DNA from: Candidatus Saccharimonadota bacterium
GTDB taxonomy: Bacteria; Patescibacteriota; Gracilibacteria; BD1-5; UBA6164
DNA: 32,000 bases
Direction: 5' to 3'
Assembly (NCBI GenBank): GCA_965227835.1
Contig: OZ245768.1
Coordinates: forward strand, 810,001-842,000
A model generated the notes under the pieces. The model ran no database searches. It saw only the letters and a program-made list of their open reading frames with translations, and was not told the DNA's origin. Below, piece by piece: positions 4,501 to 32,000 of this stretch (within the stretch, counting starts at the first letter, position 1; each line of letters begins with the position of its first letter). The position numbers and the translations under genes were made by a program.

Positions 4501-6572
4501 AATCTAAAAGTTTTAACAACAACAATAACATTGAATTAAAAGGACTTACATACCCTGCTGATTTCATAGTAGAATATATTTGACAAGTAAGAGCCTGGTT
4601 TTATGTAATGCATGTTGTGTGAGTAGCATTATTTGATAAAAGAAGTTTTACAAATGTCATTACAACTTGAATAGTAAATGGATCAGATTGAAGAAAAATG
4701 TCTAAATCATATTGAAATTATCCAGATCCAAAATGAACAATACAAAAATATTGAGCAGATGCTATAAGGTTTTATATGATAAACTCTCCCCTTATGCATT
4801 GAGCAAATATGAGTTTCAAAGAACAATGAGTACAAGAAGTTGTAAAAAAAGTAATCTTACCTCTATGGAACACATATAGTTTTTTTACAACTTATGCAAA
4901 TATAGATAAGTTTGAACCAAAGAAATGAAATATTTACTATTGTAGACACTGAGAAACTGAAAATAATGAAAAAATGATAATGAACTGATGAGATGCAGAA
5001 TCAGAATTAACACAAAAAGGTATAAAACAAGCAAAAAAAGCATGAGAAAAATTTAAACTAACTTGAGTAAAACTGGATAAAATAATAAGCTCTCCAAAAA
5101 AAAGAGCAATAGATACAGCAGAATTGATAAAAAAGCAATTAGGGTATGAAGTAGAAATAGAAGTAAATGAGAATCTAAACGAACAATTATCATGAGAATT
5201 TTTATGATTGTCCTTAGATGAAATAGCAAAAAAACTATGAATAGATATAAGGGATAAATATTTGTTGAGAAAAAGATATAAAGACAAAAAATATAATAAA
5301 ATAGAGGATATATCTGATTTTGATGAAAAAGTAGCTAAAGAATTTGAAAAAATTAAAAATACCTACAAAGATAAAAACATTTTAATAGTATCTCATTCAG
5401 GAACTTTTAGACCAATAAATAGAGTTTTATCTTGATTGAGTATAAAGGAGGCACACTATATTTGTCATTCTTCTCCTAATTCAAAAATAATAAAACTTCC
5501 GAATGAAAAAAGAGAAAACCTACTTGATAAATGGGTAATATCAGAAACAAATAAGTTGATAAAAGATGTGGAGAAAGCTATGGAAAGCTATAAACTAAAC
5601 GAAGCAACAAGACCAATAGCAAAATTTATGGATAAACTTACAAACTGGTATATAAGAAGAAGCAGAAAAAGGTTTTGGAAATCTGAAAATGATATAGATA
5701 AAATACAAGCTTATGAAACTCTACATGAAGTACTTGTAGAACTGACTAAAGTAATAGCTCCTTTTATGCCTTTTATAAGTGAGCATATATATAAAAACTT
5801 AACCGGTAATAAATCACTACATTTAGATAGTTTTCCTAATCCTGTGGATAGTTTCATATTGGAAAACTTAAATCAAGATATGGATATGTGTCAAAAGATA
5901 ATAAATTTATGACTAGCATGGAGGCAAAATCACTCAATAAGAGTTAGACAACCATTATCAAACATAAGTATATGAGAAAAACTAGATGATTATTATATAG
6001 AGATAATAAAAGAGGAACTAAATGTAAAAGAAGTGATAATATTAGAACCAAGTAAGATAGCTAAAAAAATCTGTAAACCAAATGGTAGAATTATATGACC
6101 AAAGTTTGGTAAAGATGTAAAGTTTATAATACAAGAAGCAAAAGCTGGTAGGTTTATGGAAATAGACGAAAATAGTGTGAAAGTTTGAGATTTTGTTTTA
6201 GAGTGAGAAGAATTTGAAATAGCTTTTGAACCATGAGAAACAGAATATGAGATAGAATCATGATTTGGAATGGTAATAGCTATGGACTGAAATATAACAA
6301 AAGATTTGAAACAAGAATGATATGCTCGTGATATAGTCAGGTATATTCAAGAAGCTAGAAAAGAAGCATTATATGAAGTGAGTGATAGAATAAGTATAGA
6401 ACTAAATACTTCAGAAGAAGATTTGAAAAAGGCAATAAAAAATTTTTGAGATTATATAGAAAAAGAAACCTTATCTAAAATAAAAAATAATCTAGAAAAT
6501 CCTGACTTAGAAAAGAAATTTGAAATAGATAACAATAAGTTTGGCATAAAAATAAAAATTGACAATAAATAA
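1539..6572 (+). CDS. ileS: isoleucyl-tRNA synthetase, type 2 (eukaryote-like), 1677 codons with three large in-frame insertions
   Basis: One TAA/TAG-free frame runs from ATG 1539 to TAA 6570-6572. Motifs seen: [15 protein letters not shown] (HYG 1701-1709, G=TGA), WTTTPWT, [17 protein letters not shown], [18 protein letters not shown], [17 protein letters not shown], KMSKS (4695-4709), YgADAIRFY, and the anticodon-binding [15 protein letters not shown]-track pieces 3801..4085, 4098..4295 and 5436..5912 are in-frame fragments of it. Confidence 0.9.
2210..2259 (+). repeat. 50-bp GC-rich imperfect palindrome inserted in frame in the ileS editing-domain loop
   Basis: aacctca-cccctagc-ccctctcc-ttaga-ggagagg-agttagg-ttgaggtt. 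The outer arms (aacctca/tgaggtt) and inner arms (cctctcc/ggagagg) pair. GC is much higher than the surroundings. It encodes [17 protein letters not shown] just before the WTTTPWT motif. Confidence 0.7.
3132..3683 (+). other. histidine-phosphatase (PGAM/CobC-like, branch 1) domain inserted in ileS, copy 1
   Basis: FLLIRHREA (RHG-type motif with R-H), LTDNg[17 protein letters not shown] (SP..R motif), DDRLKE, ALVSHg (catalytic His). It sits between WgTPMPIW and LHKPYVDD...DVWMDSgS, where canonical IleRS has only a short linker. Confidence 0.7.
3878..4502 (+). mobile_element. REPtron-like unit in frame within ileS: a RayT/IS200-like Y1 (HUH-type) transposase-like domain flanked by inverted GC-rich hairpin repeats
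   Basis: Left end: caagcaaggggtcaa (3878-3892), then caagcaaggggtcaagaccccttg with the 20-bp palindrome at 3928-3947. Right end: palindrome caaggggtcttgaccccttg (4460-4479), the exact reverse complement of the left one, then a repeated tgaccccttgaacaa (4470-4484 and 4488-4502). The internal peptide [12 protein letters not shown]...DRIHFIIHV...[12 protein letters not shown]...[12 protein letters not shown]...[16 protein letters not shown] parallels RayT motifs (WFFTV, HxH..., W.prFw...I, Y..YI..NPvKHG). Confidence 0.6.
4929..5498 (+). other. histidine-phosphatase (PGAM/CobC-like) domain inserted in ileS, copy 2
   Basis: IYYCRHgETENN (RHGE), [37 protein letters not shown]. It is inserted between the [13 protein letters not shown] helix and the [11 protein letters not shown] anticodon-binding region. 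Confidence 0.7.
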
Positions 6573-6613
6573 AAAATAATTATAAATTGATAATTATTTT
6601 TATACATTAAGTC

Positions 6614-7559: not shown

Positions 7560-8114
7560 ATGGAAAATATTATTAGTGAATTTCTTCAAAGTAGGAGAGG
7601 TTTTATCATTTGTTTTTTGTCATTACCTACCATGATTCTATTATGCATTGGAATTTTTTTCAAAACAAGTCATGGGTTTAGTATATTTCCAGAAATTGTA
7701 GGTATAATTATAGGTTTATTTTTAATTGCTTCTCAAGTTTACTACTGTGTTATAAATAACACTTCTAAAAAAATACTTATCTTATCTTCAAAAATTGTAT
7801 TAATTAGTATTTGTATAGGAGCAACTTCAGGAGCAATTCCACTTATTGATTTAGGTGTTAATTTGGGAAACGCACTAGGAAGTTTTTTTACAGGTCTTTT
7901 CTTGATCTCTTTAGAAAAGAATTTTAAAGAAAAATCAGAGCTTTTATTCCCAGCTTTTTGGGGAGTATTAATTTTGATAATAGTTGGTTTTTCATTATTA
8001 GAATTATCATCATCTCTAGGACCTGATGATTTCCTAATAATACTTTTCCCAGCTATACCCATTTTGTATATGGCATCTCAATTTTATGACAAAATCAAAA
8101 ATTATGATAATTGA
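7560..8114 (+). CDS. polytopic membrane protein of unknown function, TGA-terminated (formal code-25 read-through would end at TAG 8187-8189)
   Basis: AAGGAGG SD at 7548-7554 and a possible TTGACT -35 at 7483-7488. About 5-6 hydrophobic helices. No in-frame TGA among about 13 Gly codons. TGA at 8112-8114 is followed by a terminator hairpin at 8124-8158. Confidence 0.7.
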   Translation: MENIISEFLQSRRGFIICFLSLPTMILLCIGIFFKTSHGFSIFPEIVGIIIGLFLIASQVYYCVINNTSKKILILSSKIVLISICIGATSGAIPLIDLGVNLGNALGSFFTGLFLISLEKNFKEKSELLFPAFWGVLILIIVGFSLLELSSSLGPDDFLIILFPAIPILYMASQFYDKIKNYDN

Positions 8115-8123
8115 TTAAAAATT

Positions 8124-8158
8124 AAAAGCACACCTTGAAATCAAGGTGTGCTTTTTTT
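8124..8158 (+). terminator. intrinsic terminator
   Basis: Stem gcacacctt / aaggtgtgc (8128-8136 / 8143-8151) followed by a run of 7 T. Confidence 0.75.
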
Positions 8159-8210
8159 GTTTTATTTTAAAATATGTGTTAACATATAGTTATAATACAA
8201 AAATAATTAT

Positions 8211-18805: not shown

Positions 18806-21124
18806 ATGCAAGCAAATACTAAACAACAAGAAGCTATAGATAAAATAAACTGACCTCTTTTAATAATAGCCTGAGCATGAAGCTGAAAAACAGCTACATT
18901 GACAAAAAGAGTAGAAAATATGATATCAAACAAAAAAATAGAGCCAAGCTCTATTTTGATGGTAACTTTTACAAACAAAGCTGCGATGGAAATGAAACAA
19001 AGAGTAGCCAAAACTATGTGAGTAGAAGTACCAAGAAGTCTATTTTACTCTAGAAATTTTCCAAGTATTTGAACATTTCACTCAATATGAATATATTTTC
19101 TAAAAACAGTCCTAGATCCTAGAAATAATATATCACTAAACTCAGTTAAAGATATAGATAAATATAAGGATTATAGCAGTGAAATAAAAGAAACTCTATG
19201 ATTAAAAAAGGACTTTGTCATATACGACGAAACAGACAAAATATCAATTTTAAAATCAATAATAAAAACAGAACTAAACCTAGATGAAAAAGAATTTAGT
19301 GCAAAACAAATATCTTTTTATATAAGTAAAGCTAAAAGTGAGCTTATAAATTCAAAACTATATGGAGAAGAAGCTAATAGTTATTTAAAACAAATAGTAT
19401 TTGAAGTATACAGTAAATATGAAAAGAAACTAAAGGCAAACAATGCACTAGATTTTGATGATATATTGATAAAAACCTTAGAACTTTTAAAAATACCACC
19501 AATACTTGAATATTTTCAAGAAAAGTACAAATATATAATGGTTGATGAATACCAAGATACAAACAAACCCCAGTATGAAATAATAAAATTATTATCTTCA
19601 AAATATTTCAATTTAGCTGTGGTATGAGATGATAGTCAGTCTATATATTCATGGAGAGGAGCTAATTTACAAAATATACTAGATTTTAAAAAAGATTATA
19701 AAAATGCACTTATTATAAAACTTGAACAAAATTACAGATCAACAAAAAATATATTAAATTGAGCAAATAGTGTGATAAAAAACAATAAAAACTGAATGAA
19801 AAAAGAACTTTGGACTGAAAATGATTCTTGAGAAAAGATAAATTTAATTGAAGCTGTAAATGATAAAAATGAAGCAAAAGCTATATCTCAAATAATAAAA
19901 GAAAGAACAAATAAAGAAGAATACCCTGAATCTAAGTACTGAGATAATTTAATTCTTTACAGGACAAATTCTCAATCAAGACAAATAGAAGAAGCTCTTT
20001 TAAGTTCGAATATTCCTTATAAAATCATTTGAGGATTGAAGTTTTATGATAGAAAAGAAATAAAAGATTTAATTGCTTATTTAAAAATAATTTTTAACCC
20101 TCAAGACAATATAAGTGTAAAAAGAATTATAAATACACCTGCTAGAAAAATATGATCAAAAACAATAGAAACACTTGATAAATATTGTGATAACTTTTGA
20201 CTATCATATACAGAAATATTTGGAAATATAGAGGAGGTAGATGATTTAAAACCTTCGTCTAAAAAATCTATTTTTGATTTATATGATAATATTAAAAATT
20301 TGATTAAAAAAAGCTTTGAACTAGAAGTAGAGGAGATTATAAAAGAAGTAATAAATTCTATAAATTATGAAAAATATATAACTGAAGGTTTAAATGAAGA
20401 AGAAAAACAATCAAAACTTGATAATATACAAGAACTTATAAACCTAGCATCTCAATATAAATGATTTGGACCAAGAGAAAGTTTGGATCAATTTTTGGAA
20501 GAAATATCTCTTTTAACAGATTTAGATAGAAGCTCTCAAAAAAATGAAAAATTAGAAGATGAGAAAGATTATGTAGTTTTAATGACTATACATACATCTA
20601 AATGACTTGAACAAAAAAGGGTTTTTATAGCTTGACTTGAAGATGGGATTTTCCCCAGTTTTAGGTCTATAAACGATAATAATTCTTTAGAGGAAGAAAG
20701 AAGGCTTATGTATGTAGCTATGACTAGAGCTAAAGAGGAGCTTTATTTGACTAGAGCTAAAGAAAGATTTTATTTTGGGAGTTATGTAAGAAATTTGGAG
20801 TCTAGGTTTATATGAGAAATAGAACCTTCTTTATTAGAAGAATATAATCTTTTGGATTCATATATTTTAGAAGATCCTATATTTTCTATAAATTATGAAG
20901 AACAGCCATTAAAAACTGATAGAAATTCAAAAATAGTAAGAAAAATAGCAGATAATGATATATCAAATTTTTCTAAATGAGATAAAATATATCATCCTAA
21001 ATTTGGTAATGGTATAATAGTAATGTTGGATTGAGAGACAGCAGAAATTGCTTTTTCATGAACTTGAATAAAAAAAATGAATATTAGGATTGCACCTATT
21101 AAGAAAGTTGAAGATCAAGAATAA
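18806..21124 (+). CDS. pcrA: ATP-dependent DNA helicase, UvrD/PcrA (SF1A)
   Basis: Walker A AgAgSgKT at 18869-18892 has three TGA glycines. Also seen: [13 protein letters not shown], Ig[19 protein letters not shown], [15 protein letters not shown], [13 protein letters not shown], TIHTSKgLE and [13 protein letters not shown] stop at 21122-21124. Confidence 0.9.
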
Positions 21125-22346
21125 ATTTCTCAAATTCAAATATATCTAGAATGTTAATTTCGTTAGAACTCACATTTCAAGACTTATCAAAATAAACCAA
21201 TATTTTATTTTTATAGTTTAGTTTATTTAGAAGATTTAATTCCCTTTCAAAGTTTTCTATATTTAAATTGTGGCAAGTTTGGATAGCTAAATCATATTTT
21301 TCAATAATAAAATCTATTTCTCAAAAATTATTTTTTATATAAAACAAATATTCAAACTTTCTTAGTAAAAATAAATAAACTATATTCTCAAACCTCTGTC
21401 ATAAATTATTTTTGTTCACTAAATTGGTAAATCAAACATCATTTAGATAATACTTCTTAGAAGTTTTTTTATATTTATCATTAATTTCATTTATAAAAAA
21501 TATTTGCTTAAAATATTCTAAATAATTATATAAACTCTGCATTCATATTTTTACATTTTGTGATTTAAGTTCTCTAAAAACTTTTGTAGTACTAAATTCT
21601 TTTGTATTACTTAAGACTAACTTTTTAAATAAATATTTTATTACATATTCATTTGAAACTCAGTATCTTTCAAGTAAGTCTTTATATAAAACTATCTCAA
21701 AATATGATTTTATTAAATCATATTTTATATTTTCATCATTTATCAAAACTATTTCTGGATATGCTCAAAATTTCAAATATTCCAAAAAAGTATTTTTAAG
21801 TGTTCAAATATCTTTTAAAGTATATGTGTATCAAATACTTTTATCTTTGAAATCTAAAAATTCTTTAAAGCTTAGAGGAAATATCTTTATATCATAAGTT
21901 CTTCATCTAAATTCTGTAGATAGCTCACTTGAAAGTAGTTTTGAATTACTTCAACTTAGAAATATTTTAAAATTTTTATTAAAAATATATAAAACAGTTT
22001 TTGAAAAATTTTTTAACTCCTGGATTTCATCAAAAACAAAAAATGGTTCTATATCTGAGTTCATTTCGTAAAAATCTACCAAGAGTTCTTTGATATCAAA
22101 GTCATTGTCTAAAAGGGCTGAAAAGTCTATAAATATTATTTGTTCTAATTTAATTTTCTTTTCTTTTATAAGTTTTTGCAGAATAAGAAACATAAAATAT
22201 GTTTTTCATGATCTTCTGGATCATACAAAAGTAATTATTTTATGAAGGTTTAAAATTTCATTTGGGAAATTTATATCCCTATTTTTTATTTTCTTTGATA
22301 AAAGTTCAGATTGAAAATCTTTTATTAATTCTTTATATTTTCACAT
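21099..22346 (-). CDS. AAA_14 / DUF4143-type ATPase (COG1373-like)
   Basis: P-loop FVgSRRSgKTYF and Walker B-like FFVFDEIQ. The C-terminal part resembles DUF4143 (...gEIDFII...). Code-25 frame from ATG 22344-22346 to TAA 21099-21101. Track ORF 21951..22193 is an internal fragment. Confidence 0.7.
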
Positions 22347-22433
22347 AATAAGAAAAATATAGTGTAATTTTTCTTATTATATAAGAAAATTATAATAAAA
22401 ACAAGTTTATTTATTAAAAAAAGGGGCATAATA

Positions 22434-22474
22434 GTAAAAAATCTCCTCCTACCTTTTTCAAGGTAGGAGGAGAT
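22434..22474 (-). terminator. strong GC-rich intrinsic terminator directly after the TGA of the LemA gene
   Basis: The minus strand reads atctcctcctacct-tgaaaa-aggtaggaggagat followed by tttttt. It has a 14-bp perfect stem. Confidence 0.8.
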
Positions 22475-22504
22475 ATAGATTATTAATTTGTCATAATTAA
22501 GTAC

Positions 22505-23062
22505 TCAGTTTGAGGAGGTTCCAAAGGTATCAGGAGAAGTCATGGTACCAGTTGAAAAATCCCTTTTAGCATCAGCTGTTTTAAGTACAGTCATATAATT
22601 GGTAATGTCCTCTGAAGAGTAACCAAGAATAGATGCAAAAATTACACCGGGAAATTTTCGTAACTTTGTTTTATAAATACGACCAAGATCAATTAAGGTA
22701 GTTTGATTAGATTCAAAACGGCTGAATTCAATATCAACAATCTGCTGAATCTTGGTGAAAACCTCTGGTTTAATTTCTGGATTTTGTTCTTGAATCCAGA
22801 GCATTGCACCTTTGGCTCCACCTCCACCATAACGAGTACCAATAGCGGCTTCTATACCACGAACAACTTGATCAGAGTATGTATTAGCAACTAAACCAGC
22901 CTGTTCAATTTTGACTCGAATTGAGCTATAAACCTGCTGGTTATCCTCAGATTTAGCGATTATTTGCTCTTGTAGACTAATCATACTATTATTGTAATTA
23001 AAGACCAAAATTGCTAATAAAACTAAAACTGCGGTTGGAATAATAAACTTTAGATTTTTCAT
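22505..23062 (-). CDS. lemA: LemA-family membrane protein, ends on TGA (formal code-25 read-through would run to TAA 22325-22327)
   Basis: N-terminal TM helix, then YNNSMISLQEQI... and a C-terminal EQNPEIKPEVFTKIQQIVDIEFSRFESNQTTLIDLGRIYKTKLRKFPGVIFASILGY, which matches the LemA pattern (E.YP.LKa..f..Lq..l...E..i...R..YN..v..yN.....FP). AGGAG SD lies inside the end of the upstream gene. No in-frame TGA. Confidence 0.7.
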   Translation of the reverse strand: MKNLKFIIPTAVLVLLAILVFNYNNSMISLQEQIIAKSEDNQQVYSSIRVKIEQAGLVANTYSDQVVRGIEAAIGTRYGGGGAKGAMLWIQEQNPEIKPEVFTKIQQIVDIEFSRFESNQTTLIDLGRIYKTKLRKFPGVIFASILGYSSEDITNYMTVLKTADAKRDFSTGTMTSPDTFGTSSN

Positions 23063-23065
23063 AGT

Positions 23066-24418
23066 TTAACTCCTGTAAAAACCATATTTACGAGTTTGAT
23101 TATTTTCTATAACTTGACTAGTTACAAAAACAACCGTACCCACCATAATCCACACAAGTAATATTGCCCACCAAGGCATTTCGATATCATGTAAAAGATG
23201 CTCAAGTTCGTCCATAGGAACACGCTTGAAATAATTTTCTATATGATTAACGAAAAGAGAAACAAATGCTTGAGGATCAGAAACATTTGCCTGAGTTTCG
23301 ATAGCGTCACGTAATTTTACACGAAGTTCTTCATTTCCATGAAAAATCATAACACCAGCCCACTCTACATTGGGGAAATCATTAGTACCTAAAACAAGAA
23401 CAACATCATTCTTTTTCCCATAGGTCCAATCTTCTTCAAGGGCATGTAAGAAACCACGATCAGTAGTTCCAACTACATAAACTAAAAGATTGACTTGTTT
23501 TTCTGCACCAAGAGAAGCAAGAGATTGATCAAGCTGTTTATCAACTGTATTAATCCAGTTTTGTGATACGTTTGTTTCAGATACAAGTACCCTAGAGATT
23601 TCAATTTTACCAAATTCTCCTTCTTCTACATTGGGATATTGGATAAGATAGTCTACATAGGCACTAGTAGTTCCAGATCTTCTCTGAAGAGATTTACTTG
23701 CTTTCAGATAGTTAACATATTGATGTGGTACAGCAGTAGGAACCATAGCTTCCAAATTGCCTTGCCATTTAGTAACATATTTGTCACCATCACCAAAACT
23801 AACTTGATTAATGCGTGTCAAATCTTCTTCTTTCTCGTTGCCAAACTGTGATACATATTGTCTATAGTTTGAACTTGAGATAGAAATTACCTCTCCATTT
23901 GATGTAATTATTTTCCACTCAGGTGGATGGTAATCGTGTCGGGTTCTTAATACTGAAGTACAAGAGGTACTATTTCCTGTACCTGTACATTGCTGTTCAG
24001 TGTAAGTTACTTCTTCAGTCCACTCCTCATAGTATTCAGCTTTAGATACACTTCCATTCCAAATCTCAAAGTCTTGTAAACCTGAAGACCAAAAAAGAAA
24101 TGAACCAAAACAACCAATAGTCACAATTAAACTTATGAAAATTTGAAAAGGAAGTTCAATCCAGGTAAATTCTTGGGGATTACGAAATTTTCTCCATAAT
24201 CCATAGGAAATACCTGATATAGCAATAAGCCAAAAATTCATATTATGACTCATTACTGTAGAGAGTTTATCAAGCAAACCAGGATTAAATAACAGGTATG
24301 CTGTTGAAAGAATAGCACCTAATAAACAAAGTCCTGCAAGTGCCATGATAGCCTTAGCTCCTATATCAGACCAATTGAGTTGTCTAACATAGGATGTAAA
24401 TCTATTTTCTGATAACAT
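23066..24418 (-). CDS. 450-aa membrane protein of unknown function (about 4 N-terminal TM helices, large soluble domain, C-terminal TM helix)
   Basis: Intact in the standard code with no TGA at all. 15 Trp codons are all TGG, and about 30 Gly codons are all GGN. AGGAGA SD at 24424-24429, TAA stop. Visibly higher GC, and it uses CGN Arg codons unlike its neighbours. Confidence 0.8.
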   Translation of the reverse strand: MLSENRFTSYVRQLNWSDIGAKAIMALAGLCLLGAILSTAYLLFNPGLLDKLSTVMSHNMNFWLIAISGISYGLWRKFRNPQEFTWIELPFQIFISLIVTIGCFGSFLFWSSGLQDFEIWNGSVSKAEYYEEWTEEVTYTEQQCTGTGNSTSCTSVLRTRHDYHPPEWKIITSNGEVISISSSNYRQYVSQFGNEKEEDLTRINQVSFGDGDKYVTKWQGNLEAMVPTAVPHQYVNYLKASKSLQRRSGTTSAYVDYLIQYPNVEEGEFGKIEISRVLVSETNVSQNWINTVDKQLDQSLASLGAEKQVNLLVYVVGTTDRGFLHALEEDWTYGKKNDVVLVLGTNDFPNVEWAGVMIFHGNEELRVKLRDAIETQANVSDPQAFVSLFVNHIENYFKRVPMDELEHLLHDIEMPWWAILLVWIMVGTVVFVTSQVIENNQTRKYGFYRS

Positions 24419-24508
24419 AAAGTCTCCTATAGTGAGTTGATCAATTTTATCTAATCAAGTAGTTTAAATTGTATGATTAGATATAATTAATTCAGTTTAT
24501 AACAAATT

Positions 24509-24537
24509 ATTTTAACGAACATACTCTACAATAACAA
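24509..24537 (-). promoter_or_regulatory. possible promoter of the membrane-protein/LemA operon
   Basis: The minus strand reads TTGTTA-17 nt-TAAAAT (-35 at 24532-24537, -10 at 24509-24514). A 10-bp inverted repeat tatctaatca/tgattagata (24448-24457 / 24474-24483) lies in the 5' UTR. Confidence 0.3.
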
Positions 24538-24842
24538 AACATGAAGTAAAGTTACATAAAGATAACATTTATAATAATAATTTTAACATAAATGTCAAAT
24601 TTATTTTTAAAATTCACACATAGAGTGTATAATACATAATGTGCATAGATGGAGATATCCAATGAATAAATTTATTCTAATAGTGTTAGATATCTTTTAT
24701 TGATGAAATTATGAATTTAAATCCTATTGATGCTGCATAATATCTTATAGTTATGGGCTAATACCAAAAATGTTGCTCAAATTTGCATTATTAAAATATA
24801 TATGATTTAATTATTATAACTTTATATTTTAATTTAAATTAT

Positions 24843-25640
24843 ATGCCTCTAAATGAAAATTTTAACATTATTGAAAACAAAAAGAATTTACTACAAGACA
24901 ATATTTATTTTGGTAATGCTAGAGATTCTTTAATCGAAGGAAGAAGTGATTTATCAAAAGATGAAATTGATGAAATTATGAATATGAATCCTATTAATGC
25001 TACAGAATATCTTAGAAGCATGAATGCTAGAGATTCCTTGATAGAAGGAAGAAATGACCTGTCAAAAGATGAAATTGATGAAATTATGAATATGAATCCT
25101 ATTAATGCTACAGAATATCTTAGAAGTATGAATGCTAGAGATTCCTTGATAGAAGGAAGAAATGACCTGTCAAAAGATGAAATTGATGAAATTATAAATA
25201 TGAATCCTATTAATGCTGCAGAATATCTTAGAAGCATGAATGTTAGAGATTCTTTAATCGAAGGAAGAAATGATCTGTCAAAAGATGAAATTGATGAAAT
25301 TATGAATTTACATCCAAGAGAAGCTATTGAAGAATTACTTGGAGAATATTACATAGTTCAGCCTTGAGATTCTTTATGGAAAATAGTAAAAAAAAGATTA
25401 TGAAAATCAGATATTTCTGATTCGGAAATTGTTAAAGAAATAAATTTTTTAGTACACTTAAATCCACATTTAAACATAGATACTCTTAGAGTTGTTAATT
25501 GAGTATTAGAAAATTGAAAAGACTGAATACCTTGAGATTTAATTTTTCCATGAGATAAAATTAAACTAACTTGAACTTCAGATGATATAAAATCATATTC
25601 TAATCATCAATTAAATAATTTAAGAAATGAAATTAAATAG
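24843..25640 (+). CDS. LysM-domain protein with four N-terminal 36-aa tandem repeats
   Basis: The track ORF 24843..25367 continues through TGA: YIVQPgDSLWKIVKKRLg...IVKEINFLVHLNP is a LysM signature (Y.V..GD(S/T)LW.IA). TAG stop at 25638-25640. Confidence 0.75.
24915..25340 (+). repeat. about 3.9 x 108-bp in-frame tandem repeat (NARDSLIEGRNDLSKDEIDEIMNMNPINATEYLRSM)
   Basis: Units at 24915-25022, 25023-25130 and 25131-25238, with a diverged unit from 25239 on. The inner two units are nearly identical. The outer two share the tctttaatcgaagg variant. Confidence 0.9.
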
Positions 25641-25649
25641 TATTATCCT

Positions 25650-28600
25650 CTACCTAATAACATAAGAAGTATCTAGTCTAAAAAGAAGCTCTCAAATAAC
25701 TTCGCTAGAATTACTATCTGCAATTTCTAAAAGAATATAGTCTCAATAACTAGAATAATTGATATTATAATCACTAGAATTTGGTATAGATATCCTAGAA
25801 TCTTTTAGTATAGAAAATACAGGTTTTTTCAAAGAATCTGTTTTTTTATAAATAGCCAAACTTCACGGATTATATTCTACAATATCTGGAAGTTTATAAT
25901 AATCAAAACTATCCGAAACAAACTTGAAATATAATCAAGAAGTTGTTATATCATCAAAATCATCTATTACAGCTATATTGCTATCTGTTTCTCAAAACTT
26001 TAATTCTTGAGAAAATACAGGATTCCCAGATAAATCAGAAACTATAAATTCTAAGAAACTATCTTCATTTATAGAAACATCTACACTATAGGAAGGATCA
26101 GAAATAATTATTTTTCAAGTATTTTCATTTATACTAAAAGCTAAATTGTCTTCTACACTAACATCAACTAAATTACTAACCTCATTATTTAAACTAAAAT
26201 CAAAATCTCAAGAATAAGTATCCACTTTTGTAGTACCACTTGAAGTTTCAAGTCTTTTAATCACTCATCATCTAAATCTATATAAATTTATAGGCTCTCA
26301 AGATAAAGACTCATTTATAAATCAAGAAACTTCAGAACCAGAATAAGAAGATATTTCCGGTATAGGAGTATATACCTCAAAATCTATATCTTTAGAATTA
26401 GTATTTCAATTTAAATCTGTGATAACAAATTTAATCTTTTTACTAAATATATCTTCAAATTCACCAAAATTAACTCTCAAACTATTTTCAGTTTTTCTAA
26501 CTTCATATTTATCCTCATCAATTCATTCTATAACAAAACTAGATATATTAGAAATTCCAGTATCCTCATATACATTATCGGTTAAATCAACAAGTTTTTG
26601 TGAATAAACAGGTACTTTAATTTTACTATTAATATCTATTTCAGGAGCATATTTATCGGCAGCTTTTTGTGGAGAAAGAAGAACTCAAAGTGTTTTTGTA
26701 GAGAATACATTTTGTTTGAATCATGAAAGCCTAGAATAGAAATAATCATTTTGTGTATCTAGGTTTATAGAATATCTATCAGATTTTAATCCTAAATCAT
26801 ACAAAATATAAGATTTTATCTTTCTAAAATCAAGCCTTGATTCACTATCATCATAATATCTTATTCAAATATTACTTGATGTGGAAGTATCAAAAGAAGA
26901 GTTTATTTTTATTTCTGAACCAAAAAATATAGGTTTACCTAAATGACTATTAATTTCATTTCATTCTAATGTAATATCATCCAAAGCAGGGACATAAGCA
27001 TCTCAGGAAATTCAAATAACTTTTATATAATTATCAAACTCTATATTTGTGTGAGCTTCTATTTTTAAGTTATTTGAAACTTGTGAATCTCAAACTAGAT
27101 AGGTAATTTCAGTAGAATTATCTCAAGCATATATCCTAGTAGAAGCAGGTATATTAGCTATAGAAAGTTCACTTATACTATCCTTTATATTTTGAAGTCT
27201 TTTAGTTTTTAATCTAACTCAAGGTATATTATCTCAAACACTGTAAACATATGCCAAGTTTTTTCTTTTTACAATTCATCAAGTATTATAAATAGTAGAG
27301 TTATCATCACTAGAAACAAAAGAATCTACTATGCTAAGTTTTATATCCCCAGGTATATATCAAGGATTATCTTCATTTAAATATTTGTCTATTCTATCAT
27401 AGTATTCAAGTCTATAGTTAGAAATCTCATTATTTCTCAAAGCTGAAAAACCTAAATTTAGAAAACTATCTGAAACTACACTCTCCCTTACATTATTTGG
27501 ACTTTCATAAAAAATATCTCCGTTTAAAAATCTATTTGAATCAGAATCAAGTATTAAAACATCAGAATAATAAATTCAATCTTCTGATTCTGTTAAATTT
27601 TCTTTTAAATATAAATCCTCTTCAACAGAGTATAGAATGTCTAAATCAGAATCTAGATCAATGTCTATAGATGTAATAGTTTCATCTCCACTTAATTCAT
27701 CTAAATAATCAAATAATTTGTAGTTTATTTTTGTGTCTCATTCTTCCTGTATTACATAAATTCATTCATATTTTCTCTGATAACTAGAATTTTTTGCCTG
27801 ACAGCTACCTCCACTAGAACCTGATGAGTTTAGAGATGCTAGATATTTACCTGTATCTGATGAAGCTAAATAGTTATTTTCATTTTTAGCATTTTTAATA
27901 CTTCTATAACTTCTTTTTGAATAATTATTTGTATTTGAGGATGCACTTAAATCATTTTCATATATAAGACCGGCATTATTTTTGAAATCTCTAATTATAT
28001 ATTCTCAATCTTCTTTTAGTTTCTTGCTATCCATATATTTAGGATTTACTAAAGACTTAGCTCTATTTTTAAAGTTATCGCTGTATTTATCAAAAGCTGA
28101 ATTATAAGCTTCTATATGGTTAAAATTATCATTTGATATCATTTTATATGAAGACTCTTTTTTTATTTCTTTCAAATCATTTTTCATCTCATCTGTTTTT
28201 TTTATTTCTTTTTTTATTATAGATTTAAGTATTTCAAATTTTTCTAGGTTTTCTTGTTTTAAATCTCTTATAATTTTGTCTTCCTTTGAATAAGTATATC
28301 TATTAACAGTATCAAAAGTATTTCTAAACTCTCTAAATCTAGGATCTTTTATTATACTATCTTTTACTAATTCTTGGTTTATAAGAGATAGTAAAGATGC
28401 ACTCGTTAAAGTATCTTTTGAATTTGTGTCTATATATTTGGTTAAAATATTAAATCATTTAGAAACATAGTTTGCAAAAAGCTCTCACAAAATAAGAGAA
28501 GTTTCTCCTCAGTTTCAAAGTTCTATATTTGCATCTTTTCATTCAACTGAACCAAAAGGTTCCATATCAGGAAGTTTAAAATTTAGTGCATTGGTAAAAT

Positions 28601-31600
28601 TATTTGTAAAAACATTTATAGGATCAGCTATACGTGTTTTAGCCATTTCAACTAAAAACTCTGTTTCAAACTCCAAATTAACAAAAGTTTTTACTTGTAT
28701 TTCATCTACAAAAGGATAAGAAAATTGAGGTAAGTTAAAATCTAAGAAATCGGGAGTTCTAAATCATCCTCCCTCTGTTAAAAATGCGATTAAATCTCAA
28801 GCTCTCCACTCTGGAACAAAAGGAGATTTTTTTACTATACACATTATTTTTACTATAAGTTTGAAAATATTTAGTACTCATTCAAGTTCAGCAAAAAGTT
28901 TAGGTAGTTTTGGGGCAGGAGGTAAATCCGGAAGTCTTACAGTAGGCAAGTTTGGTAAATCAGGTAGAGTTGGAATATCAATACTAGGAAGTACTTCAAG
29001 TTCTGGAATTACTATATTTACACTTGGTGCTGAAGGTAAATTAAGTTCAGGTAGAGGAGGGAGAATAATAGGTCTTTGATTAAAATCAAACTCTGGCAAT
29101 ACTATATTTAAGTTTAGTCTAATACTATGTAAATCTAAAACTATATCTGGCCATTTAGGAAATTGGATTACAGGTATTTTTGGTATAAGGAAACTAATTA
29201 ACTGCATTATAAATGTCATGAGATCTGATCTTTCGTTTTTACATTCATGACACTGAGCTTCAAAATCAAAGAATATATCAGCCAAAAGTTGCCAAGATTT
29301 TAATATAGCTTTTATTAAAATATAGAGTTCAACCCAAGTTCTGAATATCTTACCGTTTCTAGATAACCATCATCATGTAATTTCTTGGATATTATCTATA
29401 TTACAAAGTACCTGTTCTAGGTAATCTTGTTTTTTGTTTGCAAGCCTAGCAAGTTTTTGAGGAATTTCTCCATATGAATCTATAACCTGTATATTTTTTT
29501 CTACACTTGAAACAAATCTGTTTGCATCCAAAAGTATCTTTTGGGATAAAGCATTTTCTTCAAGACATTCTTCTTTTTCTTGAGGATCTGTTTTTTCATC
29601 ACAAGAAAGTCATAAAGTCCGGCTTGCAACTGCTTGTTCTATTTCTTCTTTATATCATTCTAGGGAGTTTTGCCATAATAATTTAGTAGATTCCAAGGTT
29701 TTTTTGTCTATCCATGGTATATTTATATTTATAGGTTCTCAACTAATTGATACAAAAGGAACTCTTCATAGAAAATCATATACTTCTTTTATACCCGAAG
29801 TTTGTTTTTCTACACTTGTAGCAGTGTTATTTATAAAATCTCATCATACAAGATTAGTATTTCCAGGAGAAGAGCTGTTATAAGCATCTTGTTGTCATGA
29901 TTCTAAATCTTTAAAATATTCTCACCAATCAGCACCTTGTATGCTTGAAAAATCAGGTAGTATCACAAAAAGTGTAGGAAAATCTGTAAGTTTGGTAATT
30001 ATTTCTTCAAGCTGTGCTGTAACCCAGTCTGTTATAAAACTAGGAAACCCTGCGACTCTACTTTGAGAAATCTCATTTACACTACCAAGACTAAATCCAT
30101 CTTCTGAAAAATCCAAAGAAAGACTAATATCTGATTCATCTCAAGTTCATCAATTTACAGAAATAATAGAGTTATCATTTTGTATATCATAGTTATTATA
30201 GCTACCAGGTTTGGCAGGATCCTCAAAGGCATTTTTAAAAGCATCTTTTAGATTATCAGAAACTTTTCAATTTTTTCTATATTCTAGGTAATATCTAGCA
30301 AGTCCTGTATTTATCATATTGGAAGATGGAAGTTTTTGATGTCAGCTACTTTGAATACTTGTTCATCATCCACTATTTCATCATCAACCACCACAACTTC
30401 AATTTACTACTCAAAATGATGATCATCAATAGGTTCCTCATCAGTAATAGTTTACTTGTCAAATACTTCAAGGATTTCAATTTATTTCTTCATCTTTACA
30501 TAAATTTGGCATAGGAGCAGCAGCAACTATACAATTTCAACCTGGAATAGCAGGACTAGCTCAAGGTGGTGGAAGATTTCAAACAACAGAAGCTGGTCAA
30601 CCAAAACAAGCAGCAACTCAAACTCAACCAGTAAGAGTTGGTGTTACATATAGCCTAAAAACATTTGTGGGAGAATTTGCTCAAAGCATTCATCATGCTC
30701 ACATAGAAGTATTACAAGATCATCTAAAAGCAAAAGGAGAAATAGGCCATATCATAGGTACTTGAAAACATCACCAAGGACCGGGAACATTAAATCAAGT
30801 TAATCATGATATAATTGGTATACCTTCATTTACTTTTAATCAGTCTCAAATAGGAAATCAAAAAAGTGTAGGGTCTCATCCAGGAGCAAGTGGTGCCCAG
30901 TTAAGTGGAGAAGCAAAACAATTTCATCAACCAAATCAGCATCAAAATCATTGTATTAGGTTATCTAAATCAGCTGATACAGAATCAACTTTGCTATTTA
31001 TTTTACCAATCATATCAAATATATCATCATCAGCATTTATCTTTCTAGAATCACTATAATCTTTTAAAGCTTCCTGAGCATATTCAGTTAGAGCATTATT
31101 ATTGGTTTCGTATGAATCATCTAAGATTAAATCATCTGAATCATCATTTAGCTCATCTATATAATCAGGAATTCAATTATTGTTAGTATCAACATCATTT
31201 CTAGCAAGTTCTTCTGGAATTGGTGAGTTATCACAGCTTTGGGTTTGAGCTCATTTTTGGTATGATTTTTGAGAATTTGATCTAAATATTTCTCATTCTC
31301 AACCACAACTATTATTGCTACTGCTGACTCTAACATCTCAAAACGAATCATCTCAAGCTTCATCTTTTTCAAAAAGTCCAACCTCTATAGAACCAAAATT
31401 AAGTGCTTTAGTTGATACTCTATAAGTAATATTTATCTCTTCTTGGGGGTTTAAGCTAAATTTGTCCACCATAAATTTATATTTTCAAATACCTGGTCTT
31501 ATGATTAAATCATCTCTATCTTTTTTGATAGAATCAAAATCAATTTCAAAAAACTCCATTGTATCTTCCAAATATACTATATCTCTAATAACTTGTGTAT

Positions 31601-32000
31601 TTGTATTGTTTTTCAGGGTAACATTTATTTCAACTATATCTTTGTATTTAAGATTTCATCAATTTAGGTCTGTAAAAGTTTTTAATACATCTATTCAAAT
31701 TTGAGAAGCAAACTCACTTTTTATAAAATCTGTTTGCTTGGTATGATTTTCTTTTGTGGGGTCTATATCGGGATCATATGCTAGTTTTTCAAACATCAAT
31801 CTTTCAAGCATATTTACTGGTACTTCTGGAACTTCATCACTACTAGGTTCTTTTTTATCATCTATTCACCTAAAATAAAGAGCTCACATTTCATTTGTAG
31901 AATTTCAACTAAGGCTTATACCATATCAAGAATTTATGGTATTTTTTTCAAAATCTAGGCTTCAAGATTTTCAGTAAAAAATGTTTAAATCTCAGTTAGA
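25650..32000 (-). CDS. giant surface/secreted-type protein, 3' part only (more than 2116 codons in window; start lies beyond 32000)
   Basis: The minus-strand frame with codon ends equal to 2 mod 3 has no TAA/TAG from 32000 down to TAG 25650-25652. It joins track fragments 29922..30116, 28878..29285 and 28005..28187 through many TGA codons. It contains a Gly/Cys/Pro-rich hydrophobic block and an LP-rich block. No family recognised. Confidence 0.8.

What the first reader, a model, noticed from the sequence alone, without database searches (positions are those of the whole stretch)
22325..24560. Higher-GC two-gene cassette (450-aa membrane protein plus LemA) that behaves like standard-code DNA inside a UGA-recoded genome
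Across 635 codons the two genes contain no TGA codon. About 45 Gly are all GGN, whereas neighbouring genes use TGA for most Gly. They use CGN Arg codons and are visibly more GC-rich than both flanks. They have strong AGGAG-type SDs and are translationally coupled (TAA-act-ATG at 23060-23068).

The LemA gene ends on TGA (22505-22507), followed 30 nt later by the best terminator in the window (14-bp GC-rich stem plus T-run, 22434-22474). Under code 25 that TGA would be read as Gly. Translation would then run through the terminator for 60 more codons into the next gene's start region, producing either a non-stop transcript or a junk extension.

The simplest reading is a recent horizontal acquisition from a standard-code donor. 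That could be the bacterial host of this presumably epibiotic or parasitic lineage, or a mobile element, and the cassette is not yet ameliorated. A chimeric assembly is the alternative. Function is unknown. LemA genes usually pair with TPM/DUF2207-type membrane proteins, and the 450-aa partner does not obviously match these.
Basis: partly seen in the sequence, partly recalled or inferred. Interest (0 to 1): 0.7.

Follow-up and report, generated by a model that had tools for sequence, protein, structure and literature searches.

The report
Standard-code gene pair in recoded genome
A two-gene membrane-protein cassette, written in the standard genetic code, sits in a bacterium that reads TGA as glycine; it was imported from standard-code organisms, and its second gene still ends on a TGA stop the host cannot read.

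Summary
The window is a code-25 (TGA=Gly) Gracilibacteria-type chromosome. In native genes 371 of 555 Gly codons are TGA. The 450-aa gene (24418-23066, minus strand) and the LemA-like gene (23062-22505) have 0 of 42, and they use CGN Arg, have higher GC and carry AGGAG Shine-Dalgarno sites that native genes lack. The cassette has its own promoter and terminator.

The pair is a widespread, always-adjacent module (PHROG 2087 + 1383). It occurs in large phages, many standard-code bacteria and at least eight code-25 genomes. In all eight it has no internal TGA. In five, one gene still ends on a TGA at the ancestral stop position. The nearest relative (70% identity) lies on a 45%-GC standard-code contig. 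An independent assembly spans the native/cassette junction, so it is not a chimera.

Import from the standard-code gene pool is well supported. "Recent and unameliorated" is not. Third-position GC is already close to the host's. Synonymous sites are saturated between copies. One distant code-25 genome has the cassette beside uvrD too. Whether TGA absence reflects turnover or selection is open. Biochemical function is unknown. This is a clean natural example of a predicted effect, not a new kind of system.

The parts
24571..24598 (-). Promoter-like site of the cassette: TTGACA, 16-nt spacer, TATTAT (11 of 12 consensus matches).
   Evidence: Best-scoring sigma-70-type match in 21000-26000. A canonical TTGACA also lies upstream of gene A in L001, L010, L012, L005 and L007.
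24500..24520 (-). Conserved 21-nt leader motif GTTCGTTAAAATAATTTGTTA, between the promoter and the start of gene A. Role unknown; an operator or leader element is possible.
   Evidence: 20 of 21 nt are identical in the cassettes of the window, L001 and L010, although their proteins are only 57-59% identical. It occurs once in the window (expected 0.08) and otherwise only in homologous cassettes. No convincing conserved RNA fold.
24424..24428 (-). AGGAG Shine-Dalgarno site of gene A.
   Evidence: Read from the sequence. None of the 17 TGA-using native starts has an SD-like motif.
23066..24418 (-). Gene A. 450-aa polytopic membrane protein of PHROG 2087. No internal TGA; ends on TAA.
   Evidence: - phrog_2087, E=4.6e-51.
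- 29 GGN and 0 TGA.
- AlphaFold model pLDDT 86: helices 18-112 (probably transmembrane), beta-rich domain 115-280, alpha/beta domain 286-411, C-terminal helix 416-444.
- No significant PDB fold match.
23070..23074 (-). AGGAG Shine-Dalgarno site of gene B, inside the 3' end of gene A. The junction reads TAA-act-ATG.
   Evidence: Read from the sequence.
22505..23062 (-). Gene B. 185-aa LemA-like, membrane-anchored helical protein of PHROG 1383. No internal TGA; ends on TGA (22507-22505) at the ancestral stop position.
   Evidence: - phrog_1383, E=6e-35.
- Pfam LemA E=7e-4, below the gathering score; 9 of 12 homologues hit LemA.
- PDB 2ETD, E=0.047.
- All homologues end within 1-4 residues of the conserved TFG motif; the seven copies checked at DNA level end on TAA.
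22434..22474 (-). Intrinsic terminator of the cassette: 15-bp stem, 4-nt loop and T-run. It starts 30 nt after the TGA.
   Evidence: Every B homologue examined is followed within about 10-35 nt by a strong hairpin plus T-run. The stems in the window, L001 and L010 are similar in sequence.
22325..22504 (-). Read-through tail. These 59 sense codons plus TAA would be added to protein B under code 25. The tail runs through the terminator and overlaps the next gene's ATG (22346).
   Evidence: 20% GC, and the frame is open for 59 codons (shuffle mean 12, P=0.008). The public annotation gives a 245-aa product (P0046).

Best explanation
The segment from about 22434 to 24598 (minus strand) is a self-contained expression unit: promoter, conserved leader, SD-led gene A, SD-led gene B, terminator. 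It entered this code-25 Gracilibacteria-type chromosome by horizontal transfer from the standard-code gene pool, either a bacterium or a phage.

**What it encodes.** It is a widespread, always-adjacent two-gene membrane module.
- Gene A is a PHROG-2087 protein: N-terminal helices that are probably transmembrane, a beta-rich domain, an alpha/beta domain and a C-terminal helix.
- Gene B is a PHROG-1383 protein: a distant LemA-like helical protein with an N-terminal anchor helix.

**How the host reads it.**
- In the donor, TGA meant stop, so the genes contain no sense TGA. Gene A (TAA stop) is translated correctly here.
- Gene B ends on the donor's TGA. The host reads TGA as Gly and, by inference, lacks RF2.
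- Ribosomes should therefore run on into the terminator. The outcome would be either a 60-residue junk extension or, on terminated transcripts, a non-stop message that is rescued and degraded.
- B is therefore probably impaired in this genome.

**Likely function (inference, low confidence, about 0.3).** By analogy with LemA/TPM-type gene pairs, a membrane-embedded complex acting in envelope or membrane homeostasis.

**Shown:** foreign dialect, donor-type stop, family membership, conserved pairing, phylogenetic interleaving, real junction.

**Inferred:** the fate of B, the biochemical role, and the donor.
For: **Signature in the window.**
- TGA makes up 0 of 42 Gly codons in the cassette, against 371 of 555 in native genes (P=7e-21).
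- CGN Arg is 14 of 24 against 9 of 265.
- GC1 and GC3 z-scores are about 3-4.
- The cassette genes have SD sites; 0 of 17 TGA-using native genes do.
- The cassette has its own promoter and terminator.

**Family and pairing.**
- phrog_2087 E=4.6e-51 and phrog_1383 E=6e-35.
- A is immediately followed by B in about 30 loci and in Dickeya phage LIMEstone1, as ORF194/ORF195.

**The same signature in other code-25 genomes.**
- Eight code-25 genomes carry the pair: the window, L001/L119, L005, L010, L012, L017, L021 and L123.
- Their flanks are TGA-rich.
- The seven copies counted hold 254 GGN codons, and L123 adds 43. None has an internal sense TGA.

**Fossil TGA stops in five of the eight.**
- B in the window.
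- A in L010, L005 and L017, each with an ATGA stop/start overlap identical to that in standard-code L007.
- A in L123, which reads ENN-TGA-S-F-TAA.

**Larger islands.**
- In L119 and L017 the pair sits in 8-gene TGA-free islands.
- These islands retain one and three ATGA overlaps respectively.

**Phylogeny (NJ tree).**
- The window copy is sister to standard-code L007 (70% identity, bootstrap 81).
- Code-25 and standard-code hosts are interleaved.
- L017 groups with a Pirellulales copy (bootstrap 100), and L021 branches separately. This implies at least three entries.
- Seven of the eight code-25 genomes have different genomic contexts.

**Junction.** It is confirmed by an independent assembly at 99.9% identity over gene A.

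**Literature.**
- Read-through of UGA stops on foreign DNA was predicted for this clade, and 126 HGT genes were inferred in Vampirococcus (PMC8080830).
- TGA-free phages of these hosts have been reported (PMC10746230).
Against: - No integrase, transposase, tRNA or direct repeats flank the cassette in the window.
- No donor closer than 70% identity was found.
- GC3 is already near host level and synonymous sites are saturated between copies. Either the transfer is old or the donor was AT-rich.
- Window and L010 both have the cassette convergent with uvrD, although their UvrD proteins are only 63% identical. This hints at long residence in code-25 genomes, which simple 'recent HGT' does not explain.
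- GGT and CGT preference, a strong promoter and an SD site are also the signature of highly expressed genes.
- I could not examine ribosomal-protein genes of this genome.
- The fate of B (read-through, non-stop decay) is inferred, not observed.
Confidence: 0.8

Rival explanations
1. Long-resident gene pair kept TGA-free by selection. Whatever its ultimate origin, the cassette has lived in code-25 genomes for a long time. It avoids TGA, and prefers GGT and CGT, because it is highly expressed or because TGA decoding is costly for it. On this reading the signature is a codon-bias class, not a mark of recent arrival.
For: - The cassette has a near-consensus promoter, strong SD sites and a strong terminator.
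- GGT is 26 of 42 Gly codons and CGT is 10 of 24 Arg codons.
- GC3 tracks the host in every code-25 genome (0.12-0.32), yet TGA stays at zero.
- Synonymous sites are saturated. GGT/GGA turnover is seen at 11 conserved Gly columns across five code-25 copies with no TGA.
- Five of the seven members of the main clade come from code-25 hosts.
- uvrD adjacency is shared by the window and L010.
- Other TGA-free genes occur in Gracilibacteria, including a lipoprotein-like gene and an SLH-domain gene. TGA-poor genes tend to have SD sites: 4 of 6 against 3 of 34.
Against: - Fossil TGA stops persist in five of eight genomes. Two of them cause 60- and 64-codon extensions, which strong selection for expression should have removed.
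- The TGA-free state extends to whole 8-gene islands with ATGA overlaps. These include an AAA ATPase and DUF6638, which are unlikely to be highly expressed.
- Relatives closer by UvrD (L116, L117, L118) lack the cassette beside uvrD.
- RRF (5 TGA, 2 GGN) and pilin-like genes use TGA freely.
- From general knowledge, organisms with one rRNA operon and few tRNA genes show little translational selection on codon usage.
Confidence: 0.2
2. Cargo left by a code-neutral phage or mobile element. The pair was delivered by one of the TGA-avoiding, host-like AT-rich phages predicted to infect Gracilibacteria and Absconditabacteria, and is a remnant or moron of such an element.
For: - Both proteins belong to PHROG families.
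- tblastn matches in 431 phage records (gene A) and 310 (gene B) in the INPHARED collection.
- AT-rich (28-32% GC), standard-code-compatible IMG/VR contigs L035-L040 and L042 carry the pair. They form the weakly supported sister clade (bootstrap 54).
- Such phages are described in PMC10746230.
- This would explain host-like GC3 without TGA.
Against: - Viral homologues are at most 34% identical, while cellular ones reach 70%.
- No phage hallmark genes or integrase lie next to the cassette in the window or in the other code-25 loci.
- The reported prophages of these hosts are TGA-rich.
- Those phages place backup stops close to TGA stops. B has none for 59 codons.
Confidence: 0.2
3. Assembly chimera. 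A standard-code fragment was mis-joined into a code-25 contig.
For: Abrupt change of composition and codon dialect over about 2.2 kb.
Against: - Independent ENA contig L115 is collinear from the native giant gene through the intergenic region and all of gene A: 1 mismatch in 1,353 nt, and the intergenic region has no mismatches (one indel).
- Both flanks are code-25 on one 1.49-Mb contig.
- The cassette's GC3 is host-like, not donor-like.
- The same arrangement occurs in seven other assemblies.
- The 3' junction (22380-22440) has no second assembly behind it, because L115 diverges after B's ATG.
Confidence: 0.02
4. Ancestral vertical inheritance. The pair predates the code change and was simply never recoded.
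For: - The family occurs in the standard-code sister lineages Peribacteria and Peregrinibacteria.
- TGA stops would then be true ancestral stops.
Against: - Native genes have converted two-thirds of Gly codons to TGA. About 300 Gly codons staying GGN over that time in eight lineages is not credible under neutrality.
- The Peribacteria copies do not group with the code-25 copies.
- Contexts differ between genomes, and close relatives lack the cassette at the uvrD site.
Confidence: 0.03

Closest known systems
PHROG 2087 + PHROG 1383 gene pair of large virulent phages (for example Dickeya phage LIMEstone1 ORF194 and ORF195 'virion structural protein'; Ackermannviridae, Vibrio pVp-1-like and jumbo phages)
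   Same: - Both proteins match the profiles strongly (4.6e-51 and 6e-35).
- The gene order is the same, A then B immediately downstream.
- Both proteins are membrane-anchored.
   Different: - Only 25-34% identity to the phage copies.
- Here the pair is a stand-alone chromosomal unit with its own promoter and terminator, with no phage genes nearby.
- The function of the phage pair is itself unknown. 'Virion structural' is a database annotation.
Bacterial LemA (PF04011; structure 2ETD) paired with TPM/DUF2207-type membrane proteins
   Same: - B has an N-terminal anchor helix and a helical bundle.
- B has the C-terminal Y-K-T-x-(I/L)-x-K-F-P-G motif, which aligns to 2ETD.
- B is adjacent to a membrane protein whose alpha/beta domain weakly resembles TPM.
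   Different: - The LemA score is below Pfam's gathering threshold (19.9 against 26.2 bits).
- The fold search is not significant (2ETD E=3.5).
- The TPM match is faint (E=0.058; 4 of 35 homologues) and no TPM structure was recovered.
- Partner A has a distinctive domain order: N-terminal helices, beta-rich domain, alpha/beta domain, C-terminal helix.
Horizontally acquired genes in code-25 CPR bacteria, and the proposed 'UGA read-through of foreign genes' barrier (Moreira et al. 2021, PMC8080830)
   Same: A foreign gene in a TGA=Gly genome whose TGA stop would be read through, exactly the effect predicted there.
   Different: - That paper argues the point in general terms.
- Here there is a concrete, recurrent case: eight genomes, five fossil stops, and read-through tails of 2 to 64 codons.
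Code-11-compatible (TGA-free) phages predicted to infect Gracilibacteria and Absconditabacteria (Liu et al. 2023, PMC10746230)
   Same: TGA-free coding DNA associated with code-25 hosts, with TGA used only as a stop.
   Different: - Those are free phage genomes; the prophages they found were TGA-rich.
- Here the TGA-free DNA is a small chromosomal cassette or island without phage hallmark genes.
- B has no nearby backup stop.

Membership tests
LemA family (Pfam PF04011) | Profile match at or above the curated gathering score | tested here: not met
   19.9 bits against a cutoff of 26.2 (E=7e-4). 9 of 12 close homologues hit LemA, best E=3.8e-5. Consistent but sub-threshold.
LemA family (Pfam PF04011) | N-terminal membrane anchor followed by a helical bundle; conserved C-terminal FPG motif | tested here: met
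   The model shows helix 4-54 followed by helices up to residue 171. The stretch YKTKLRKFPGVIFASILGY aligns to YNTAIKKFPGVIFAKMFGF of 2ETD.
LemA family (Pfam PF04011) | Fold similarity to the solved LemA structure 2ETD | tested here: inconclusive
   2ETD ranks 27th, E=3.5, TM 0.28/0.34. The model is of moderate quality (pLDDT 75), and helical bundles discriminate poorly.
TPM domain (PF04536) / DUF2207-type LemA partner | Profile match above the gathering score, or TPM-like fold in the partner protein | tested here: not met
   13.8 bits against a cutoff of 22.1 (E=0.058, residues 294-347). Only 4 of 35 homologues hit, best E=0.012. No TPM structure among the Foldseek PDB hits for a pLDDT-86 model. 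No sequence hit to PDB.
PHROG 2087 + PHROG 1383 phage gene pair | Significant full-length profile matches for both proteins | tested here: met
   phrog_2087: 4.6e-51, residues 60-443 on profile positions 2-358 of 360. phrog_1383: 6e-35, residues 10-174 on positions 14-180 of 187.
PHROG 2087 + PHROG 1383 phage gene pair | The two genes are adjacent and co-oriented, A upstream of B | tested here: met
   Seen in the window, in about 30 cellular loci and in phage LIMEstone1 ORF194/ORF195.
Horizontally acquired islet from a standard-code donor | Coding dialect differs from the host: no sense TGA, donor-type TGA stop, atypical Arg and Gly codons, GC and SD use | tested here: met
   (P=7e-21 for TGA; P=5e-12 for CGN).
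Horizontally acquired islet from a standard-code donor | Phylogeny incongruent with host relationships; nearest relative in a different-code organism | tested here: met
   Sister to standard-code L007 (70% identity, bootstrap 81). Code-25 copies fall in at least three places in the tree. The tree is NJ only.
Horizontally acquired islet from a standard-code donor | Patchy presence: absent at the same site in related genomes (empty site) | tested here: inconclusive
   L116, L117 and L118 (UvrD 62-69% identical) have no cassette within 10 kb of uvrD. L010 (63%) does have it beside uvrD. No close relative above 70% UvrD identity exists in the databases, apart from a near-identical strain.
Horizontally acquired islet from a standard-code donor | Mobility signatures at the borders (integrase, transposase, tRNA, direct repeats) | tested here: not met
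   No flanking direct repeats beyond chance. No tRNA in the window. Neighbours are a PDC-S01 ATPase and a repeat protein.
Prophage or remnant of a code-11-compatible phage (Liu et al. 2023) | Phage hallmark genes (terminase, portal, tail, integrase) in the same TGA-free block | tested here: not met
   The TGA-free block in the window holds only the two genes. The larger islands in L001/L119 and L017 carry an AAA ATPase, DUF6638, DUF6524, DUF808 and membrane proteins, with no informative PHROG hits.
Known anti-phage defence systems (PADLOC) | Profile match of either cassette protein | tested here: not met
   No PADLOC family for A or B. Only the neighbouring native gene matches (PDC-S01, 9.4e-79).

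The most novel reading that the evidence does not exclude
Code-25 bacteria keep a distinct 'standard-dialect' gene class: SD-led, TGA-free genes and islands, of which this cassette is the clearest member. These genes stay free of sense TGA over long residence rather than merely being recent arrivals.

Two mechanisms could do this:
- selection against the reassigned codon in these genes;
- continual exchange with a code-neutral mobile pool shared with standard-code neighbours.

Either way, such genes would remain exportable across the code boundary. The standard-code copies nested in the mainly code-25 clade (L007, L011; also L121, not in the tree) could then be exports.

The evidence does not exclude this reading:
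- GC3 is host-like and synonymous sites are saturated.
- About 300 Gly codons in eight genomes include no sense TGA.
- uvrD adjacency is shared by two distant genomes.
- SD presence correlates with TGA-poverty.
Probability: 0.25. Interest if true: 0.7.

Novelty: new member of a known kind. Interest (0 to 1): 0.45.

Why it matters
Codon reassignment is often proposed to act as a firewall against gene flow. This cassette is a concrete natural test of that idea.

- A standard-code operon has entered TGA=Gly genomes repeatedly. One gene works as written. The other carries a stop codon the host cannot read.
- The read-through tails left behind range from 2 to 64 codons. They show what the barrier actually costs and how leaky it is.
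- The cassette gives a defined target for proteomics or ribosome profiling, namely the C-terminus of protein B.
- It also gives a simple marker set for mapping foreign DNA in code-25 genomes: no sense TGA, TGA or ATGA gene ends, and SD sites.
- The module itself (PHROG 2087/1383) is widespread in large phages and in CPR bacteria, and its function is still unknown.

Tried and rejected
- **Chimera.** Rejected. The independent contig L115 spans the 5' junction.
- **Code 4 (TGA=Trp).** Rejected. TGA sits at invariant Gly positions in the UvrD, IleRS and Walker A motifs.
- **Defence system.** No PADLOC hit for A or B.
- **TPM identity of A.** Not confirmed. The Pfam match is sub-threshold, there is no PDB sequence hit, and Foldseek found no match with E<=0.001 (best 0.023) despite a pLDDT-86 model.
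- **LemA fold for B.** Foldseek was inconclusive.
- **Flanking direct or inverted repeats as att sites.** Only chance-level AT-rich matches. The 57-nt repeat at 24699-24755 is a degenerate copy of the neighbouring gene's 108-nt tandem repeat, not a target duplication.
- **Closer phage donor in IMG/VR.** Best identity 34%.
- **Co-transfer with the 3' end of uvrD.** No local rise in window-L010 UvrD identity.
- **Conserved RNA structure in the leader.** Not supported: -6 kcal/mol from three sequences.
- **Rfam and tRNA scans of the window.** Nothing found.
- **Larger conserved operon.** Only a ~590-aa membrane protein is shared between the L001 and L017 islands. It is absent from the window.
- **Codon usage of this genome's ribosomal-protein genes.** I could not reach them. 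The 1.49-Mb source contig is not readable through the tools and the look-ups are exhausted. The high-expression rival is therefore judged on indirect evidence only.
- **Literature on TGA use against expression level.** Nothing found in the papers available.

Full report
**1.

The window (about 25% GC) is TGA-recoded. Summed ORF capacity triples when TGA is read as sense, from 4,218 to 13,838 aa. TGA falls on invariant glycines: UvrD motif I (A-g-A-g-S-g-KT), IleRS GWDCHg and KMSKSYg, and the Walker A motif gSRRSgKT of the gene next to the cassette. This is code 25, not code 4.

On the minus strand:
- Gene A runs 24418-23066: 450 codons, TAA stop.
- Gene B runs 23062-22505: 185 codons, TGA stop.

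Codon usage and composition differ sharply from native genes:

| Measure | Cassette | Native genes |
|---|---|---|
| Gly codons that are TGA | 0 of 42 | 371 of 555 (66.8%) |
| Arg CGN | 14 of 24 | 9 of 265 |
| GC | 0.35 | 0.20-0.285 |
| GC1 | 0.476 / 0.449 | 0.32 +/- 0.045 |
| GC3 | 0.213 / 0.243 | 0.146 +/- 0.022 |

The TGA difference has P=7e-21 and the Arg difference P=5e-12.

- Both genes carry AGGAG 5-7 nt upstream of the ATG. None of the 17 TGA-using native starts has an SD-like motif.
- The best promoter-like site in 21000-26000 (TTGACA-16-TATTAT, 24598-24571) lies upstream of A.
- A 15-bp hairpin plus T-run (22474-22434) starts 30 nt after B's TGA.
- Reading TGA as Gly adds 59 sense codons up to TAA at 22327-22325.
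- The public annotation calls exactly this 245-aa product (P0046).

**2. What the genes are**

*Profile matches.*
- Pfam gives only weak hits: LemA for B (E=7e-4, below the gathering score) and TPM for A (E=0.058).
- PHROG profiles match strongly: A is phrog_2087 (4.6e-51, function unknown) and B is phrog_1383 (6e-35, annotated 'virion structural protein').

*Distribution.*
- tblastn finds matches to A and B in 431 and 310 phage records respectively (Ackermannviridae, Vibrio pVp-1-like phages, jumbo phages) at 25-34% identity.
- In Dickeya phage LIMEstone1 they are adjacent as ORF194/ORF195, in the same order as here.
- A followed immediately by B is conserved in about 30 cellular loci. These include Peribacteria/Peregrinibacteria, Buchanan-, Sacchari- and Paceibacteria, Planctomycetota, Myxococcota, Achromobacter and Variovorax.

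*Structure.*
- The AlphaFold model of A is confident (pLDDT 86). It shows helices 18-112 (probably transmembrane), a beta-rich domain (115-280), an alpha/beta domain (286-411) and a C-terminal helix. It has no significant PDB fold match.
- B models as an anchor helix plus a helical bundle.
- B shares the YxTxIxKFPG motif with the LemA structure 2ETD (E=0.047), and 9 of 12 homologues hit LemA below threshold. The fold search is inconclusive.

I therefore call B 'distantly LemA-like' and A 'a LemA-partner-type membrane protein with at most a faint TPM resemblance'. No PADLOC defence family matches either protein.

**3. Origin: the standard-code gene pool**

*Eight code-25 genomes carry the pair.* They are the window, L001/L119 (on a 1.7-Mb JGI contig), L005 (Gracilibacteria GCA_028713225), L010, L012 (Absconditabacteria), L017 (Gracilibacteria), L021 (SR1) and L123. 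In every one the flanks are TGA-rich and the pair has no internal sense TGA. The seven copies counted hold 254 GGN codons, and L123 adds 43.

*Five of the eight keep a fossil TGA at the position of the ancestral stop.*
- B in the window. All 11 homologues in the alignment end within four residues of the conserved TFG motif. The seven copies inspected at DNA level end on TAA and are followed by a terminator.
- A in L010, L005 and L017. There the TGA overlaps B's ATG (ATGA), exactly as in standard-code L007. Read-through is 64, 9 and 5 codons.
- A in L123, which reads ENN-TGA-S-F-TAA.

*Larger islands.* In L119 and L017 the pair lies inside 8-gene islands of about 9-11 kb. These have no internal TGA (185 and 130 GGN codons) and retain one and three ATGA overlaps respectively.

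*Phylogeny.* The nearest homologue of the window's A (70% identity) is on a 45%-GC contig that uses TGA as a stop. In an NJ tree with 100 bootstraps:
- Window and L007 are sisters (bootstrap 81).
- They sit in a clade (bootstrap 89) that mixes code-25 hosts with the standard-code hosts L007 and L011. L121 is another standard-code carrier (48% identity to A), but it was not included in the tree.
- L017 groups with a Pirellulales copy (bootstrap 100).
- L021 branches elsewhere.

Code-25 genomes have therefore received the module at least three times. Seven of the eight have different genomic contexts.

**4. Not a chimera**

An independent ENA assembly (L115, a different sample) is collinear with window 30673-23060. 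This covers the native giant gene, the repeat-protein gene, the intergenic region and all of gene A. There is 1 synonymous difference in 1,353 nt of A and no mismatches (one indel) in the intergenic region.

**5. How 'recent' is it?**

- Third positions are mostly host-like. Four-fold GC3 is 0.16 against 0.09 for native genes, while the nearest standard-code copy has GC3 of 0.52-0.56.
- In all code-25 hosts the cassette's GC3 (0.12-0.32) tracks the host.
- Codon identity at conserved residues between copies (0.47-0.53) is close to the chance expectation (0.37-0.48). Conserved Gly columns show free GGT/GGA/GGG turnover, yet never TGA.
- In L010 the cassette is convergent with uvrD, as in the window. 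The window has an extra TGA-rich PDC-S01 ATPase gene in between. The two UvrD proteins are only 63% identical, and genomes closer by UvrD (L116-L118) lack the cassette there.

Two explanations remain:
- The donors were AT-rich standard-code organisms or phages, and turnover is fast. AT-rich TGA-free viral contigs with the pair do exist, at 30-34% identity, and TGA-free phages of these hosts are in the literature.
- The genes persist and TGA is selected against.

The retained fossil stops with 60-64-codon tails argue against strong optimisation. The host-like GC3 and the shared uvrD site argue against very recent arrival. I could not reach this genome's ribosomal-protein genes to test expression-linked bias directly.

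Indirect data are mixed:
- RRF and pilin-like genes use TGA freely.
- A few other SD-led, TGA-free genes exist in Gracilibacteria, including a lipoprotein-like gene and an SLH-domain gene. Elsewhere TGA-poor genes carry SD sites in 4 of 6 cases, against 3 of 34 for TGA-using genes. In the window the figures are 3 of 3 against 0 of 17.

**6. Consequence for gene B (inferred)**

With TGA read as Gly, ribosomes enter the terminator stem 30 nt downstream.
- If transcription stops at the T-run, the message has no stop codon. Rescue and degradation of the product are expected.
- If translation disrupts the hairpin, a 60-residue, hydrophobic, AT-rich-encoded tail is added, and transcription reads into the PDC-S01 gene.

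Either way B is probably compromised.

It may be relevant that the near-identical strain contig L115 diverges completely right after B's ATG. It carries a different short ORF and hairpin, so B is absent there. That contig has only 2.6x coverage and ends 167 nt later, so this remains unexplained.

**7. Comparison with what is known, and verdict**

- Read-through of UGA stops on foreign DNA was proposed for this clade, along with extensive HGT (PMC8080830).
- TGA-free phages of these hosts have been described (PMC10746230).
- The present case is a clean and recurrent chromosomal example. It is an HGT islet made of a known but uncharacterised phage/bacterial gene pair.
- I file it as a new member of a known kind.
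- What is worth keeping is the set of fossil stops, and the open question of why these cassettes never acquire sense TGA.

Noticed in passing
window 1539-6572 (+): The isoleucyl-tRNA synthetase is 1,677 aa long. Its catalytic domain is split by in-frame inserts: two histidine-phosphatase (His_Phos_1) stretches (family E=3.6e-62) and an IS200-like Y1 transposase domain (aa 853-953, E=5e-7). This is an unusual mosaic for an essential enzyme.
   Followed up: partly
window 7560-8189 (+): This 209-aa membrane-protein gene is the only other gene in the window with a strong SD site (AAAGGAGG). It is also TGA-poor (2 TGA, 15 GGN) while having host-like GC (26%). It is probably an older foreign gene. 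No Pfam match.
   Followed up: partly
window 24500-24520 (-); L001 about 6562-6582; L010 about 5905-5925: A 21-nt motif, GTTCNTTAAAATAATTTGTTA, lies in the 5' leader of gene A. It is 20 of 21 nt identical in three code-25 genomes whose proteins are only 57-59% identical. It is unique in the window, and no conserved RNA fold was found. It is possibly an operator.
   Followed up: partly
L115 7506-7672, compared with window 23060 downward: The near-identical strain contig (99.9% over gene A) diverges completely right after the ATG of the LemA-like gene. It continues into unrelated sequence with its own hairpin terminator, and nothing there matches the window. This could be loss or replacement of gene B in a sister strain, or an artefact of a 2.6x-coverage contig.
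   Followed up: partly
window 25650-32000 (-): The giant (over 2,100 aa) surface-type protein gene is only 97.0% identical to the sister strain (152 mismatches in 5,024 nt). The adjacent cassette and intergenic DNA are 99.9-100% identical. This looks like a hypervariable or recombining locus.
   Followed up: no
window 24843-25640 (+) and 24699-24755: This gene contains four 108-nt (36-aa) tandem repeats, and a degenerate fifth copy lies upstream of its start. The repeat region aligns differently in the sister strain.
   Followed up: no
window 21099-22346 (-): The gene between the cassette and uvrD matches the PADLOC candidate defence family PDC-S01 (9.4e-79). It is fully native in dialect (14 TGA, 0 GGN). 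It is absent from the otherwise similar cassette-uvrD arrangement in L010.
   Followed up: partly
L119 1246-11911 (same island as L001 1-8555); L017 296-8849: Two code-25 genomes carry 8-gene islands of about 9-11 kb with no sense TGA and with ATGA stop/start overlaps. The L119/L001 island contains an AAA ATPase, DUF6638 and the cassette. The L017 island contains DUF6524, the cassette and DUF808. Both share a ~590-aa membrane protein of unknown family.
   Followed up: partly
L117 7244-8638; L118 8483-9880 and 12361-13980: Other Gracilibacteria have unrelated TGA-free genes right next to uvrD: a 464-aa protein, a 465-aa lipoprotein-like protein and a 539-aa SLH-domain protein. They have 22-36 GGN codons and no TGA. 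Two of the three (the 464-aa and SLH genes) have SD-like motifs.
   Followed up: partly
L010 (CAYFPB010000002.1): This contig is labelled 'uncultured Candidatus Peribacteria', but it is clearly TGA-recoded: ORF density is 0.28 under code 11 and 0.89 with TGA as sense. The label or bin assignment is probably wrong.
   Followed up: no
L007 about 1150-1270: In the nearest standard-code relative, tRNA-like 3' ends (GGTTCGAATCC motifs on both strands) lie just upstream of the cassette. This hints at a tRNA-associated integration site. It was not checked with ARAGORN.
   Followed up: no
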